Made by a program: the position numbers and the translations under genes | IMG/VR virus record: IMGVR_UViG_3300018080_004888 | Coordinates: 1 to 64,000 of that record | DNA from: a virus | Lineage: Duplodnaviria > Heunggongvirae > Uroviricota > Caudoviricetes | Strand: one strand, 5' to 3' | DNA length: 64,000 nucleotides | Part shown: positions 47,234 through 48,280 of the stretch, piece after piece | Position numbering within the stretch: position 1 is the first letter of the stretch | Layout of the letters: each line of letters begins with the position of its first letter | Notes under the pieces: generated by a model | Seen by the model: only the letters and a program-made list of their open reading frames with translations | What the model was told of the DNA's origin: nothing | Database searches by the model: none

Positions 47234-47366
47234 AGCCGGGGGCGGGATTCGAACCCGCATAAATTTCTTGGAAGGAAATCTTTTTGCCTTTTGTTTGTAA
47301 GTTATGTCTGTAGGGGACAGTTTCCTGTCCGAGTCGTCACAACTAGTAGAACTTTCGTTCCCCGGC
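47234..47366 (-). tRNA. tRNA-Gly(UCC)-like gene interrupted by a roughly 60-nt conserved element between the acceptor/D region and the anticodon arm.
   Basis: 5' acceptor GCCGGGG at 47360-47366 is perfectly complementary to CCCCGGC at 47235-47241, across an insert. The 3' part has anticodon stem AUUUC/GAAAU, anticodon loop CUUCCAA and T-arm GCGGG-UUCGAAU-CCCGC. The D-stem could not be assigned. Confidence 0.4.
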
Positions 47367-47397
47367 ATTTGCCTTCCGAAGAAGGCGGTTTTTCGGT

Positions 47398-47604
47398 TTA
47401 CCCGAATACGGCTTGTGGCCGCAATGTAATCTCTCCGTTCGCAGCACGGTCGATGGAGAAGTTGGCGAGCTTCGTGGGAGTTACACCCAACGCGGAAGCT
47501 GCCGCCTGTCGGATCTGAGAATCCGTGGACAGATCTCCGATATCCAAGTCCGTGAACTGGAAGTCGTAGCTGTGTCCGTCGTGTCGTACATGCAATTGAC
47601 TCAT
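47398..47604 (-). CDS. Small hypothetical protein (68 aa) embedded in the tRNA array.
   Basis: Strong Shine-Dalgarno sequence GGAGGAAAGAG 8 nt before ATG(MSQLHV). Confidence 0.4.
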   Translation of the reverse strand: MSQLHVRHDGHSYDFQFTDLDIGDLSTDSQIRQAAASALGVTPTKLANFSIDRAANGEITLRPQAVFG

Positions 47605-47665
47605 CTCTTTCCTCCTTCCCATCTTTCTAGTGTTTTGGGGCTGTCCAAGTTGAAAAAGCGTTCAG

Positions 47666-47736
47666 TAACAATTCCGGGTTTGAAGCCGGAACCTCCACAT
47701 TACAAGTGTGATGCTCTTCAATTGAGCTAAATTGTT
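47666..47736 (-). tRNA. tRNA-Thr(UGU).
   Basis: Acceptor AACAAUU/AAUUGUU, D-arm GCUC-AAUUGAA-GAGC, anticodon stem UCACA/UGUGG, anticodon loop CUUGUAA. The T-stem has one mismatch. Confidence 0.5.
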
Positions 47737-47766
47737 TGTAAGCTTCCTCCGTAGGGGACAGCCAAG

Positions 47767-47880
47767 TGGACGAGATCGGATTCGAACCGATTACTTTTGG
47801 AAAGCTACCATGTTTGTAAGCTTCACCTGTGGGGGACAATTTCTTGTCCAAGTCGAAGAAGCGTAAACTACTTCTCGCCC
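47767..47880 (-). ncRNA. tRNA-like gene with a split acceptor stem around the conserved insert element. No anticodon could be assigned.
   Basis: GGGCGAG (47874-47880) pairs with CUCGUCC (47768-47774) over 7 bp with one G-U. The 3' part has T-arm AUCGG-UUCGAAU-CCGAU. Confidence 0.35.
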
Positions 47881-47890
47881 GTTGTATTAG

Positions 47891-48028
47891 TGCGGGAGGC
47901 TGGAATCGAACCAGCAGTCTCAAACTTAATAGGTTTGCGTCTTTACCGTGTGTTTGTAAGTTTTCACCGTAGGGGACAGTTTCCTATCCGAGTCGTCAAA
48001 ACTGTAACAGCCATTTGACTACTCCCGC
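47891..48028 (-). tRNA. tRNA-like gene interrupted in the D-loop, with an unusual AUU anticodon.
   Basis: GCGGGAG (48022-48028) is perfectly complementary to CUCCCGC (47892-47898). The 3' exon has anticodon stem CAAAC/GUUUG, anticodon loop CUAUUAA and T-arm GCUGG-UUCGAUU-CCAGC. Confidence 0.4.
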
Positions 48029-48147
48029 GTTTGTATCGTTATCCGTCCAAGTCGAAGGAGCGGTGCCCCTCGGCTCTTCTGGCCGAGGAGCCAAGCAAAG
48101 ATCCGAAAATCGTTTGTAGGCTCACATCCGTAGGGGACGGAAAAAGG

Positions 48148-48280
48148 CGGAGGGGGTTGGAATCGAACCAACAACTTTAGTTATTCAGACTAATGTTTTA
48201 CCATGCGTTTGTATGCTATTCCAGTAGGGGACGCGGTACGTCCAAGTCGGCCAGCAAAAGAAGCGTTAAACTTCCCCTCC
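48148..48280 (-). tRNA. tRNA-Phe(GAA) interrupted in the D-loop by a roughly 62-nt element.
   Basis: Exon 1 is GGAGGGG-AA-GUUU-A. The insert runs about 48204-48266. Exon 2 is AUGGUA-AAAC-A-UUAGU-CUGAAUA-ACUAA...GUUGG-UUCGAUU-CCAAC-CCCCUCC-G. The acceptor stem (7 bp) and the D-stem GUUU/AAAC are both perfect across the insert. Confidence 0.55.

What the first reader, a model, noticed from the sequence alone, without database searches (positions are those of the whole stretch)
47234..48280. tRNA genes split in the D-loop by a conserved 60-75-nt hairpin element
In at least four minus-strand units, a 7-nt 5' acceptor strand (plus the 5' strand of the D-stem) lies 70-90 nt upstream of the rest of the tRNA. 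The pairs are GCCGGGG/CCCCGGC, GGGCGAG/CUCGUCC, GCGGGAG/CUCCCGC and GGAGGGG/CCCCUCC. Each pair is complementary only across an intervening element. For tRNA-Phe(GAA) at 48148..48280, both the 7-bp acceptor stem and the D-stem GUUU/AAAC are perfect across a 62-nt insert that sits inside the D-loop. The inserts share the core (U)GACGACUCGGACAGGAAACUGUCCCCUAC...UUACAAAC. D-loop interruptions of bacterial or phage tRNA genes by an element this small (far too short for group I or group II introns) are not, to my knowledge, a described class. The candidate explanations I can offer are a new kind of mini-intron, a miniature insertion element that targets D-loops, and tRNA halves joined in trans.
Basis: seen in the sequence. 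Interest (0 to 1): 0.9.

Follow-up and report, generated by a model that had tools for sequence, protein, structure and literature searches.

The report
tRNA-shaped Y RNAs beside phage Ro60
The "inserts" that split four phage tRNA genes are copies of a conserved RNA hairpin that most likely docks the Ro60 protein encoded next door, so these are probably tRNA-shaped Y RNAs of a new design, not tRNAs with a new kind of intron.

Summary
Four minus-strand tRNA-like units (48280-48148, 48028-47891, 47880-47767, 47366-47234) each carry a 50-52-nt conserved hairpin in the D-arm region, and their acceptor strands pair across it.

The intron reading is not favoured. The same module also occurs circularly permuted, with its 3' half (R), a cargo (X) and its 5' half (L) in that order. 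It flanks tRNA-Thr, tRNA-Arg and a 49-nt hairpin here. In relatives it flanks permuted tRNA mimics with tetraloop-sealed acceptor stems, or nothing at all.

The array ends about 80 nt upstream of a 513-aa gene whose predicted fold is Ro60/Rsr. In a complete 595-kb relative, all 13 model hits lie within 4.2 kb upstream of its single Ro60 gene, on the same strand. Every anticodon carried by a module-bearing tRNA there also exists as an ordinary tRNA gene. In three relatives a half-module sits against the Ro60 ribosome-binding site.

Both helices covary, with G-U pairs, so the structure is RNA. No Rfam family matches the module.

Best reading (confidence about 0.7): a new Ro60-docking module grafted onto tRNAs and tRNA mimics, forming an array of Y-like RNAs. 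This is a new variant of a known kind. Splicing is not excluded without RNA data.

The parts
48297..48326 (-). Promoter-like site (GTGACG, 18-nt spacer, TACAAT) 17 nt upstream of the first unit. Possible start of the RNA array transcript.
   Evidence: It matches 9 of 12 consensus positions, so the evidence is weak.
48148..48280 (-). Split tRNA-like unit 'Phe(GAA)': acceptor GGAGGGG/CCCCTCC, D-stem GTTT/AAAC, canonical anticodon loop CTGAATA, T-arm, discriminator G.
   Evidence: partial tRNA hit 48156-48203. ARAGORN calls Phe GAA after in-silico removal, in 61 junction combinations.
48207..48256 (-). Module copy 1. P1 is TGCT/AGCA. The internal loop is ..CGACUU on one side and CCCUAC.. on the other. 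P2 is GGACG(U)/(C)GUCC. The 3' tail is UACAAAC.
   Evidence: 45.6 bits; MFE -14.7 kcal/mol, z -2.3.
48039..48144 (-). Y-RNA-like unit in the classical topology. The R half is at the 5' end and the L half at the 3' end, and they pair in 9 of 10 P2 positions. They enclose a 49-nt cargo that holds a GC-rich hairpin.
47891..48028 (-). Split tRNA-like unit B: acceptor GCGGGAG/CTCCCGC, anticodon loop CTATTAA (AUU, not a normal bacterial anticodon).
   Evidence: The orthologue in L002 has the same acceptor and T-arm but anticodon UCU.
47952..48003 (-). Module copy 2 (P1 AGUUUU/AAAACU, P2 GGAUAG/CUGUCC, GAAA loop).
   Evidence: (65.9 bits).
47767..47880 (-). Split tRNA-like unit C: acceptor GGGCGAG/CTCGTCC, normal T-arm, no normal anticodon arm. 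It is a degenerate tRNA mimic.
   Evidence: no tRNA call under any of 297 junction combinations.
47812..47862 (-). Module copy 3 (P1 GCUUC/GAAGC, P2 GGACAA/UUGUCC).
   Evidence: (69.5 bits).
47639..47763 (-). R half, tRNA-Thr(UGU) and L half, in that order. The outer stem GGCTGTCC/GGACAGCC and P1 GGAAGC/GCUUUU pair across the tRNA. Nucleotides 1-4 of the tRNA are the AAAC of the R tail.
47398..47604 (-). Conserved 68-aa ORF inside the array, with a beta-grasp-like predicted fold. It is a conserved member of the locus, with unknown role.
   Evidence: tblastn hits upstream of Ro60 in 14 relatives, E 1e-5 to 1e-25..
47234..47366 (-). Split tRNA-like unit D: acceptor GCCGGGG/CCCCGGC, anticodon loop CTTCCAA (UCC), no D-stem. 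It duplicates the ordinary tRNA-Gly(UCC) at 50663-50734.
   Evidence: not called as a tRNA.
47293..47344 (-). Module copy 4 (P1 AGUUGU/ACAUAACU, P2 GGACAG/CUGUCC, GAAA loop).
   Evidence: (70.6 bits).
47100..47230 (-). R half, tRNA-Arg(ACG) with encoded CCA, and L half, in that order. The outer stem TTGTCCGTCC/GGACGGACAG pairs in 10 of 10 positions. Nucleotides 1-5 of the tRNA are the CAAAC of the R tail, and positions 1:72 form a C-A mismatch.
47041..47078 (-). Hairpin AACCGAACUUGGCG-UCC-CGCCAAGUUCGGUU followed by a U-run, just upstream of the Ro60 ribosome-binding site. It looks like a terminator and contains ACUUGG..GUCCC. In LR756511, L010 and L012 a clear half-module sits at this place, abutting the Shine-Dalgarno sequence.
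45480..47021 (-). Divergent Ro60/Rsr orthologue, 513 aa (ATG at 47021, RBS GGAGG). This is the inferred binding partner of the module.
   Evidence: P0001 is 100% identical and 513 aa.; the top 12 Foldseek hits are all Ro60 structures.

Best explanation
The conserved insert is the Ro60-docking module of a phage family of Y-like RNAs. It is not an intron.

The module runs in this order: (A)AAC, P1 (5-6 bp, free sequence), NNCRACUY, P2 (RGAC../..GUCY), a loop, CCNAY plus 3-4 nt, P1', and (U/A)UACAAAC.

The phage transcribes an array of these modules just upstream of its own Ro60 gene. Each module is joined to a cargo in one of two ways.
[quoted passage not shown] The cargo (X) can be a bare loop, a small hairpin, a permuted tRNA mimic with a closed acceptor stem, or a complete tRNA with CCA.
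- **New topology (L-loop-R).** The whole module is closed as a hairpin and grafted into the D-arm region of an otherwise complete tRNA body. These are the four 'split tRNAs' of the finding.

Shown here: the RNA structure, the two topologies, the strict linkage to Ro60, and the Ro60 fold.

Inferred:
- Ro60 binds the P2 and internal-loop core.
- The RNAs persist unspliced as Ro60 RNPs.
- The tRNA-shaped part acts as the effector or bait module. It could bind tRNA-handling enzymes, an exonuclease such as PNPase, or host anticodon nucleases.
- The half-module next to the Ro60 ribosome-binding site gives feedback control of Ro60 translation.
For: 1. **The neighbouring gene is Ro60.**
- The AF2 model has pLDDT 81.
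- Its 12 best PDB matches are all full-length Ro60, Rsr or phage Ro60 structures, with E 7e-11 to 1.6e-8.
- A sequence profile puts human RO60 on top at E 0.005.
- Two of three homologues tested (P0003, P0050) hit Pfam vWA_Ro60.

2. **Linkage to Ro60.**
- Covariance model R1 gave 73 hits in 18 sources. All are on the Ro60 strand and upstream of the gene.
- In the 64-kb window the only hits lie in 47291-48267, with one weak hit at 47732-47787 inside that span.
- In the complete 595-kb genome LR756511.1, all 13 hits lie 27 nt to 4.2 kb upstream of the only Ro60 gene.
- A pattern scan of 2.9 million viral contigs found genuine copies only on Ro60-encoding contigs.
- A scan of 185,579 cellular genomes found one hit. 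Its model scores equal those of phage locus L009, so it is probably the same phage on a short contig binned into a MAG.

3. **It is an RNA structure.**
- P1 and P2 are 93% paired, with 58 double-change cells. None of 500 shuffles reached this, and slid controls were at most 48% paired.
- There are 7 U-G pairs at one P2 position.
- All four copies here fold the same way, with z-scores of -2.3 to -2.9.

4. **Y-RNA architecture.**
- There are 30 R-X-L units whose halves pair with their own partner better than with non-partners (P2 9.07 versus 6.91 of 10; P1 4.77 versus 3.92 of 5).
- Their cargos include bare 25-32-nt loops. They also include permuted tRNA mimics in the order T-arm, closed acceptor, D-arm, with GCAA or UUCG tetraloops.
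- That is the published YrlA design: Ro60 site in the terminal stem, tRNA-like domain, gene within 4 kb of Ro60 on the same strand (PMC4201824; 10.1101/312249).

5. **A half-module abuts the Shine-Dalgarno sequence of the Ro60 gene** in LR756511, L010 and L012.

6. **The module-bearing tRNAs are not needed for decoding.**
- LR756511 has 64 tRNA calls, 61 of them without a module, plus a tmRNA. Each anticodon carried by a module-bearing tRNA is also present as an ordinary gene.
- Here, ordinary copies of Gly UCC and Thr UGU exist.
- Units C and D are degenerate, and unit B has anticodon AUU.
Against: - No binding data exist. The Ro60 link rests on genomic association and analogy.
- The 5'-strand motif GUC(C/U)C(C/A)NAY is not the published metazoan GGUCCGA or bacterial GNCGAAN0-1G motif. 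No Rfam family, including the Y RNA models, matches.
- Most split units keep complete tRNA features, with canonical anticodon loops. 17 of 25 are called as tRNAs once the module is deleted. That is also what real introns would look like.
- At least two permuted units keep an encoded CCA in the acceptor loop (L003 2904, L007 2608).
- A 50-nt hairpin in the D-loop might still need removal for any tRNA-like function.
- Redundancy with ordinary tRNA genes is suggestive only, because ordinary phage tRNAs are also duplicated.
Confidence: 0.7

Rival explanations
1. These are true interrupted and permuted tRNA genes. The L/R helix is a processing signal, functionally like the archaeal bulge-helix-bulge motif. 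An endonuclease cuts it on both sides and a ligase such as RtcB joins the ends. This yields mature tRNAs from the split and permuted genes and releases the flanked tRNAs. Ro60 may act as a chaperone for the process.
For: - Deleting the module gives ARAGORN-recognisable tRNAs in 17 of 25 cases, with canonical anticodon loops.
- Rfam's tRNA model spans L001 2767-2893 across the insert at 50.6 bits.
- The same helix occurs both as an insert and as a flank of permuted tRNAs, as BHB motifs do in archaea.
- L003 2904 is a complete permuted class II tRNA-Leu(UAA) with encoded CCA.
- In bacteria, Ro60 operons are linked to RtcB (PMC7790460).
Against: - There is no BHB geometry. P1 is 5-6 bp, flanked by asymmetric loops of 5-10 nt.
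- The distance from the module to the tRNA body on the 5' side varies from 0 to 16 nt.
- Seven units carry no cargo at all.
- Acceptor stems of most permuted units are sealed by GNRA or UNCG tetraloops.
- Units C and D here are not viable tRNAs.
- Every module-bearing anticodon in LR756511 is duplicated by an ordinary gene.
- A half-module lies in the Ro60 5' UTR.
- No ligase or splicing endonuclease appears among the 25 Pfam families listed for 70 window ORFs. That covers one 64-kb window only, and 6 further families were not shown.
Confidence: 0.15
2. The module is a new small self-cleaving or self-splicing ribozyme that processes the tRNA array. For example, it might cut after UACAAAC to make tRNA 5' ends.
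For: - The internal loops are highly conserved and the 3' tail UACAAAC is invariant.
- UACAAAC or AUACAAC also directly precedes the 5' ends of units B and C.
- Small ribozymes next to phage tRNAs are a known theme (from my own knowledge: HDV-like 'theta' ribozymes).
Against: - No hit to any Rfam ribozyme family, even at E up to 10.
- A single cut would not rejoin a split tRNA.
- In the flanked tRNAs, the AAAC of the tail forms nucleotides 1-4 of the acceptor stem. A cut after ACAAAC would therefore destroy the tRNA.
- The idea does not explain the strict linkage to Ro60 or the copy in the Ro60 5' UTR.
Confidence: 0.05
3. The element is a miniature mobile DNA element (MITE, IS200/IS605-type hairpin element, or attC-like site) that targets tRNA D-arms.
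For: - There are many copies.
- Insertion points within the tRNA body vary, from 15/16 to 25/26.
- A TTAC motif sits at the boundary, which recalls the IS608 target (from memory only).
Against: - All copies are on one strand and in one 1-4-kb locus per genome.
- There are no terminal inverted repeats or target duplications.
- Compensatory changes with G-U pairs are strand-specific, which means RNA.
- The same tRNA identities (Phe, Met CAU, Arg UCU, Lys UUU) carry the module in phages whose Ro60 proteins are only 50-60% identical. The arrangement is therefore old and stable, not sporadic.
Confidence: 0.04

Closest known systems
YrlA-type bacterial and phage Y RNAs (Ro60/Rsr-associated tRNA mimics; Chen et al. 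2014, PMC4201824; Wang et al. 2018, 10.1101/312249)
   Same: - Encoded within 4 kb upstream of a Ro60 orthologue, on the same strand.
- Modular: a conserved bulged stem plus a tRNA-like effector domain.
- Relatives here contain units with exactly the YrlA order (T-arm, loop-closed acceptor stem, D-arm) inside the terminal stem.
- Phage examples with Y-like RNAs upstream of Ro60 are known (PMC12135203).
   Different: - The stem motif differs: GUCYCNNAY with CRACUYRGAC, against GNCGAAN0-1G.
- No Rfam or YrlA-like sequence match.
- The module stem leaves the permuted tRNA body between the variable region and the T-arm, not at the anticodon-stem position.
- The cargo can be a complete tRNA with anticodon and CCA.
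- In the four units of this finding, the whole Ro60-type stem is closed into a hairpin and inserted inside a tRNA. I found no described Y RNA with this topology. All characterised Y RNAs carry the site in the stem formed by the 5' and 3' ends.
- The arrays hold 7 modules here and more than 13 in LR756511.
Metazoan Y RNAs (Ro60 site GGUCCGA paired with ..CUUGAC.. in the terminal stem)
   Same: - A bulged helix with a GUCC-containing 5' strand.
- A ..ACUUG(G)AC.. 3' strand. The human Y RNA 3' strands I compare with are recalled from memory, so this is a lead and not a test.
- A variable loop module.
   Different: Different internal-loop sequences, no match to Rfam Y_RNA, and prokaryotic-virus context.
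Archaeal and eukaryal BHB tRNA introns, and split or permuted tRNA genes
   Same: One helix serves both as an insert inside tRNAs, at non-canonical positions including the D-arm, and as the junction of permuted tRNAs.
   Different: - No bulge-helix-bulge geometry.
- The insert is strongly conserved in sequence, whereas BHB introns are not.
- Bacterial-virus context.
- Cargo-less copies exist.
- No splicing endonuclease was seen.
Group I introns in bacterial and phage tRNA genes
   Same: They interrupt tRNA genes in the same array. Two real ones lie at 51879-52066 and 52871-53069.
   Different: Those are 190-200 nt, sit in or near the anticodon-loop region and match Rfam RF00028. The module is 50 nt, sits in the D-arm region and matches nothing.

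Membership tests
Y RNA / YrlA (Ro60-associated ncRNA) | Encoded next to a Ro60/Rsr orthologue, on the same strand, within about 4 kb. | tested here: met
   The Ro60 fold of ORF 47021-45480 is shown. The array lies at 47100-48280 on the same strand. All CM hits in 17 loci and in a complete 595-kb genome lie upstream of Ro60 on its strand.
Y RNA / YrlA (Ro60-associated ncRNA) | A long stem formed by the 5' and 3' ends carries the conserved Ro60-binding site. | tested here: inconclusive
   Met for the three R-X-L units here and for 30 in all. Not met for the four split units, where the same stem is an internal hairpin. RNA ends were not mapped.
Y RNA / YrlA (Ro60-associated ncRNA) | Published Ro60-site sequence (GGUCCGA in metazoa, GNCGAAN0-1G in bacteria), or a match to the Rfam Y RNA models. 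| tested here: not met
   The consensus here is GUC(C/U)C(C/A)NAY opposite CRACUYRGAC. It shares only GUCC. No Rfam hit at E up to 10.
Y RNA / YrlA (Ro60-associated ncRNA) | A second module resembling tRNA (T-arm, D-arm, acceptor-like stem). | tested here: met
   Complete tRNAs or tRNA-like bodies are present in 6 of 7 units here. YrlA-order permuted mimics occur in L001, L003, L007 and L010.
Y RNA / YrlA (Ro60-associated ncRNA) | Physically bound by Ro60. | not testable with these tools
   Needs EMSA, RIP or a structure of the complex.
BHB-type tRNA intron / permuted tRNA | Bulge-helix-bulge: two 3-nt bulges separated by a 4-bp helix at the exon-intron junctions. | tested here: not met
   The alignment and folds show P1 of 5-6 bp, an asymmetric internal loop of 5 and 6 nt, P2 of 6-10 bp and an 8-nt single-stranded tail.
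BHB-type tRNA intron / permuted tRNA | The spliced product exists, and a splicing endonuclease and ligase are present. | not testable with these tools
   No RNA data are available. None of the 25 Pfam families listed for 70 window ORFs is a ligase or an EndA-type endonuclease. This covers one window only, and the family list was truncated.
Group I / group II self-splicing intron | Catalytic core detectable by covariance model; size at least about 200 nt. | tested here: not met
   The module is 50-52 nt and has no RF00028 or group II hit. The same scan does find two group I introns elsewhere in the array.
Known small self-cleaving ribozymes (hammerhead, twister, pistol, hatchet, HDV-like, hairpin) | Match to the family covariance model. 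| tested here: not met
   No hits at E up to 10 over 46900-53300 or over L010 3630-3830.
MITE / IS200-IS605-type or attC DNA element | Copies on both strands and at scattered sites, terminal repeats or target duplications, and presence/absence polymorphism. | tested here: not met
   One strand and one locus per genome, with strand-specific G-U covariation. Empty sites were not searched for exhaustively.

The most novel reading that the evidence does not exclude
The module-bearing genes are real split and circularly permuted tRNA genes of a bacterial virus. They are matured by a protein-dependent cut-and-ligate pathway that uses the conserved Ro60-type helix as its signal. That would be a bacterial-world counterpart of archaeal BHB splicing, with Ro60 as the platform. 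It would also give Ro60 and Y RNAs a direct role in tRNA biogenesis.
Probability: 0.12. Interest if true: 0.95.

Novelty: new variant of a known kind. Interest (0 to 1): 0.62.

Why it matters
Y RNAs and Ro60 are conserved from bacteria to humans, yet the purpose of the tRNA-like domain of bacterial Y RNAs is unknown.

Here a large clade of huge phages carries a divergent Ro60 that Pfam's TROVE model misses. More than 2,900 homologues were found, many on contigs of 200-690 kb. Next to this gene lie arrays of 7 to more than 13 docking modules. The modules are fused to real tRNAs of defined identity (Phe, Met, Arg, Lys, Thr, Ser), to permuted tRNA mimics, or to nothing.

This series runs from complete tRNA to mimic. 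It suggests that the partner of the tRNA-like domain reads genuine tRNA features. It also offers compact constructs of 50-130 nt for testing Ro60 binding, RNase P or CCA processing, and decoy functions against tRNA-targeting host defences.

There is a practical point as well. tRNA finders miss these genes, and they could be mis-annotated as pseudogenes or as introns.

Tried and rejected
- **Known RNA families.** Rfam at gathering thresholds, and at E up to 10, over the array and over two minimal units gave only tRNA and group I hits.
- **Phage database.** BLAST found tRNA matches plus one weak hit to LR756511.1, which proved to hold the same system.
- **Sequence-level identification of the 513-aa protein.** Pfam, NCBIfam and PHROGs gave only a weak VWA_2 hit. 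Identification needed a profile search and a fold search.
- **BHB, ribozyme and mobile-element readings.** Rejected on geometry, lack of model hits, strand and locus restriction, and G-U covariation.
- **A helix P0 (GUU/AAC) closing the insert.** It is present in many copies but weak or absent in others, for example L001 2766 and L010 3008. I do not count it as part of the module.
- **Exact 'splice' junctions.** ARAGORN tolerates a wide range of junctions, so none can be defined from sequence.
- **Six extra pattern matches in viral contigs.** These are isolated chance hits without the L motif.
- **The 68-aa protein.** No Pfam hit and no significant structural match.
- **Literature.** Searches for phage Y RNA/tRNA chimeras or permuted phage tRNAs found nothing relevant. 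The library is incomplete.
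Full report
**1. What is in the sequence**

On the minus strand between 48280 and 47100 two half-motifs recur seven times each.
- L is a variable 5-6-nt strand followed by NNCGACUUGGAC.
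- R is GUCCCCYAC, then 3-4 nt, then the complement of that variable strand, then UUACAAAC.

In four places L and R are adjacent and form a closed hairpin (L-loop-R).
- Phe(GAA), 48280-48148
- unit B, 48028-47891
- unit C, 47880-47767
- unit D, 47366-47234

ARAGORN does not see these units. Rfam's tRNA model hits three of the 3' parts below threshold.

- a 49-nt hairpin, 48144-48039
- tRNA-Thr(UGU), 47763-47639
- tRNA-Arg(ACG) with encoded CCA, 47230-47100

In the last two, the AAAC of the R tail supplies the first four or five nucleotides of the acceptor stem.

**2. The module is a conserved RNA structure**

I aligned 25 hairpin-type copies from the window and eight related phage loci.
- Invariant positions are ACU.RGA, GUC.C..A and UACAAAC.
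- There are two helices, P1 and P2. 93% of cells are paired, with 58 double-sided changes. None of 500 shuffles reached this, and slid controls were at most 48% paired.
- One P2 position has 7 U-G pairs, so the structure belongs to the transcript of this strand.
- The four window copies all fold the same way: P1, a 5-nt and 6-nt internal loop, P2, and a single-stranded UACAAAC tail. Energies are -14.4 to -15.3 kcal/mol and z-scores -2.3 to -2.9.
- For 30 R-X-L units, each R pairs with its own L better than with other L halves (P2 9.07 versus 6.91 of 10; P1 4.77 versus 3.92 of 5).

**3. The neighbour is Ro60**

The array ends about 80 nt upstream of a gene at 47021-45480 (513 aa).
- Sequence libraries gave only a weak vWA hit.
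- Two of three homologues tested touch Pfam vWA_Ro60.
- A family profile ranks human RO60, Thermus-phage Ro60 and Deinococcus Rsr among its top five PDB hits, at E 0.005, 0.065 and 0.5.
- The AF2 model (pLDDT 81) has Ro60 structures as its 12 best matches, over the full length, with E 7e-11 to 1.6e-8.
- The family is large, with more than 2,900 hits, and is frequent on contigs of 200-690 kb.

**4. Linkage of module and Ro60**

- A covariance model of the module gave 73 hits in the window and 17 loci. All are on the Ro60 strand and upstream of the gene. In the 64-kb window there is nothing outside 47291-48267.
- I fetched the complete 595,163-bp genome LR756511.1. All 13 hits lie 27 nt to 4.2 kb upstream of its single Ro60 gene, on the same strand.
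- A pattern scan of IMG/VR found genuine copies only on Ro60-encoding contigs. Six other matches were isolated chance hits.
- A scan of 185,579 cellular genomes gave one hit, on a 2.8-kb MAG contig. Its model scores equal those of phage locus L009, so it is probably the same phage.
- In LR756511, L010 and L012 a half-module (ACUUGGA, hairpin, GUCCCCAAY) sits directly against the Shine-Dalgarno sequence of the Ro60 gene. This is the classical layout of a translational operator bound by the gene's own product.

**5. The range of cargos argues for Y RNAs and against introns**

Across relatives the R-X-L cargos are of five kinds:
- bare loops of 25-32 nt (seven units)
- small hairpins
- RNAs of 176-390 nt
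- complete tRNAs with CCA
- circularly permuted tRNA bodies in the order T-arm, acceptor stem, D-arm, anticodon arm

The acceptor stems of the permuted bodies are mostly sealed by GCAA or UUCG tetraloops.

This matches the published description of YrlA Y RNAs:
- the Ro60 site lies in the stem formed by the 5' and 3' ends
- they are encoded within 4 kb of Ro60 on the same strand (PMC4201824; 10.1101/312249)

Phage Ro60 with Y-like RNAs upstream is also known (PMC12135203).

A module that occurs without cargo, and in an mRNA leader, cannot be only an intron.

**6. Are the split units working tRNAs?**

Deleting the module in silico yields an ARAGORN tRNA in 17 of 25 copies, with canonical anticodon loops: Phe GAA, Met CAU, Arg UCU, UCG and CCU, Lys UUU, Trp CCA, Tyr GUA.

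Other results point away from a decoding role.
- In this window, unit C lacks an anticodon arm.
- Unit D lacks a D-stem.
- Unit B carries AUU. Its orthologue in L002 has the same acceptor and T-arm but anticodon UCU.
- The junction position varies from 15/16 to 25/26.
- The spacing between the tRNA body and P1 varies from 0 to 16 nt.
- In the complete LR756511 genome, ARAGORN tRNAs plus a tmRNA, and 61 of these carry no module. Every anticodon borne by a module-carrying tRNA (Tyr GUA, Lys UUU, Trp CCA, Arg UCG, Met CAU, Ser CGA, Thr UGU) also exists as an ordinary gene.
- Here, ordinary copies of Gly UCC and Thr UGU exist.

The module-bearing copies are therefore extras.

**7. Mechanism proposed**

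Shown: a structured 50-nt RNA module, in two topologies, strictly tied to a Ro60 gene.

Inferred:
- Ro60 binds the P2 and internal-loop core.
- The array yields a set of Ro60 RNPs whose second module is a tRNA or a tRNA mimic.
- The four 'split tRNAs' are tRNA-shaped Y RNAs with the docking stem grafted into the D-arm region.
- The 5' UTR half-module gives feedback on Ro60 synthesis.

The purpose of the tRNA part is open. It could tether to RNase P, the CCA enzyme or PNPase, or act as a decoy for host anticodon nucleases.

Confidence is about 0.7 for the Ro60-module reading, and somewhat lower for the claim that the RNAs are never spliced.

**8. Rivals**

- A protein-dependent cut-and-ligate pathway, BHB-like in logic, remains possible (0.15). 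It would be the exciting case.
- A new ribozyme (0.05).
- A mobile DNA element (0.04).
- Trans-joined halves (below 0.01).

The last three fit the data poorly, for the reasons given with each rival.

**9. Comparison and novelty**

This works like, and probably is, a Y RNA system. It fails the sequence-motif and Rfam membership tests.

It adds arrangements that I found no description of:
- the Ro60-type stem closed as a hairpin inside a tRNA body
- the stem flanking complete CCA-bearing tRNAs
- arrays of many modules

I therefore class it as a new variant of a known kind.

Noticed in passing
window 47398-47604 (-): A 68-aa ORF (MSQLHVRHDG...RPQAVFG) sits inside the RNA array. It is conserved upstream of the Ro60 gene, on the same strand, in 14 related loci (tblastn E 1e-5 to 1e-25). 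The AF2 model (pLDDT 82) is a small two-strands, helix, two-strands fold that looks beta-grasp-like. There is no Pfam hit and no significant PDB match. It may be a third component of the Ro60 system.
   Followed up: partly
L034 38258-38292 (LR756511.1), L010 3974-4006, L012 3948-3987; window 47041-47078: A half-module (ACUUGGA, hairpin, GUCCCCAAY) lies directly against the Shine-Dalgarno sequence of the Ro60 gene in three relatives, which looks like an autoregulatory operator. In this window the same place holds a terminator-like hairpin containing ACUUGG..GUCCC.
   Followed up: partly
window 51879-52066 and 52871-53069 (-): Two small group I introns (Rfam RF00028, 67 and 65 bits) are about 87-89% identical to each other. 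Each interrupts a tRNA gene in the same array. One host looks initiator- or Met-like (exons at about 53083-53040 and 52876-52812). The array thus holds two kinds of interrupted tRNA genes: those with group I introns and those with Ro60-type modules.
   Followed up: no
window 47952-47891 (unit B); L007 2608-2754: The unusual anticodon loop CUAUUAA (anticodon AUU) recurs in two different phages, in two different module topologies (split and permuted). This could be a deliberate non-decoding or nuclease-resistant variant.
   Followed up: no
L001 4695-4960; L010 1900-2126; L012 1044-1133: A conserved larger non-tRNA RNA carries one or two tandem hairpin modules (P1 GCUGCU/AGUAGC type). In addition, a roughly 280-nt structured RNA in L001 (about 3685-3960) follows an R half and precedes an L-like CCGACUAGAAC. 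Neither matches Rfam at gathering thresholds.
   Followed up: no
L032 30188-30261; L035 42480-42832 (LR756511.1): The complete relative genome encodes a CUA-anticodon tRNA (called tRNA-Pyl by ARAGORN, so an amber suppressor) and its own tmRNA, alongside the standard tRNAs.
   Followed up: no
window, whole: Phage hallmarks (Gp23-type major capsid, GP88) occur together with auxiliary genes: APS kinase, two sulfotransferases, a glutamate-type dehydrogenase, ThiF-family E1-like and Prok-JAB proteins, and seven proteins with TAT signals. The ThiF and JAB pair plus a small beta-grasp protein could form a ubiquitin-like system.
   Followed up: no
window 48029-48036, 47881-47887, 48281-48285 (-): Orphan (A)UACAAAC, AUACAAC or AAUAC motifs directly precede the 5' ends of split units B, C and Phe. 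The module's 3' tail may double as a preferred tRNA 5' leader.
   Followed up: no
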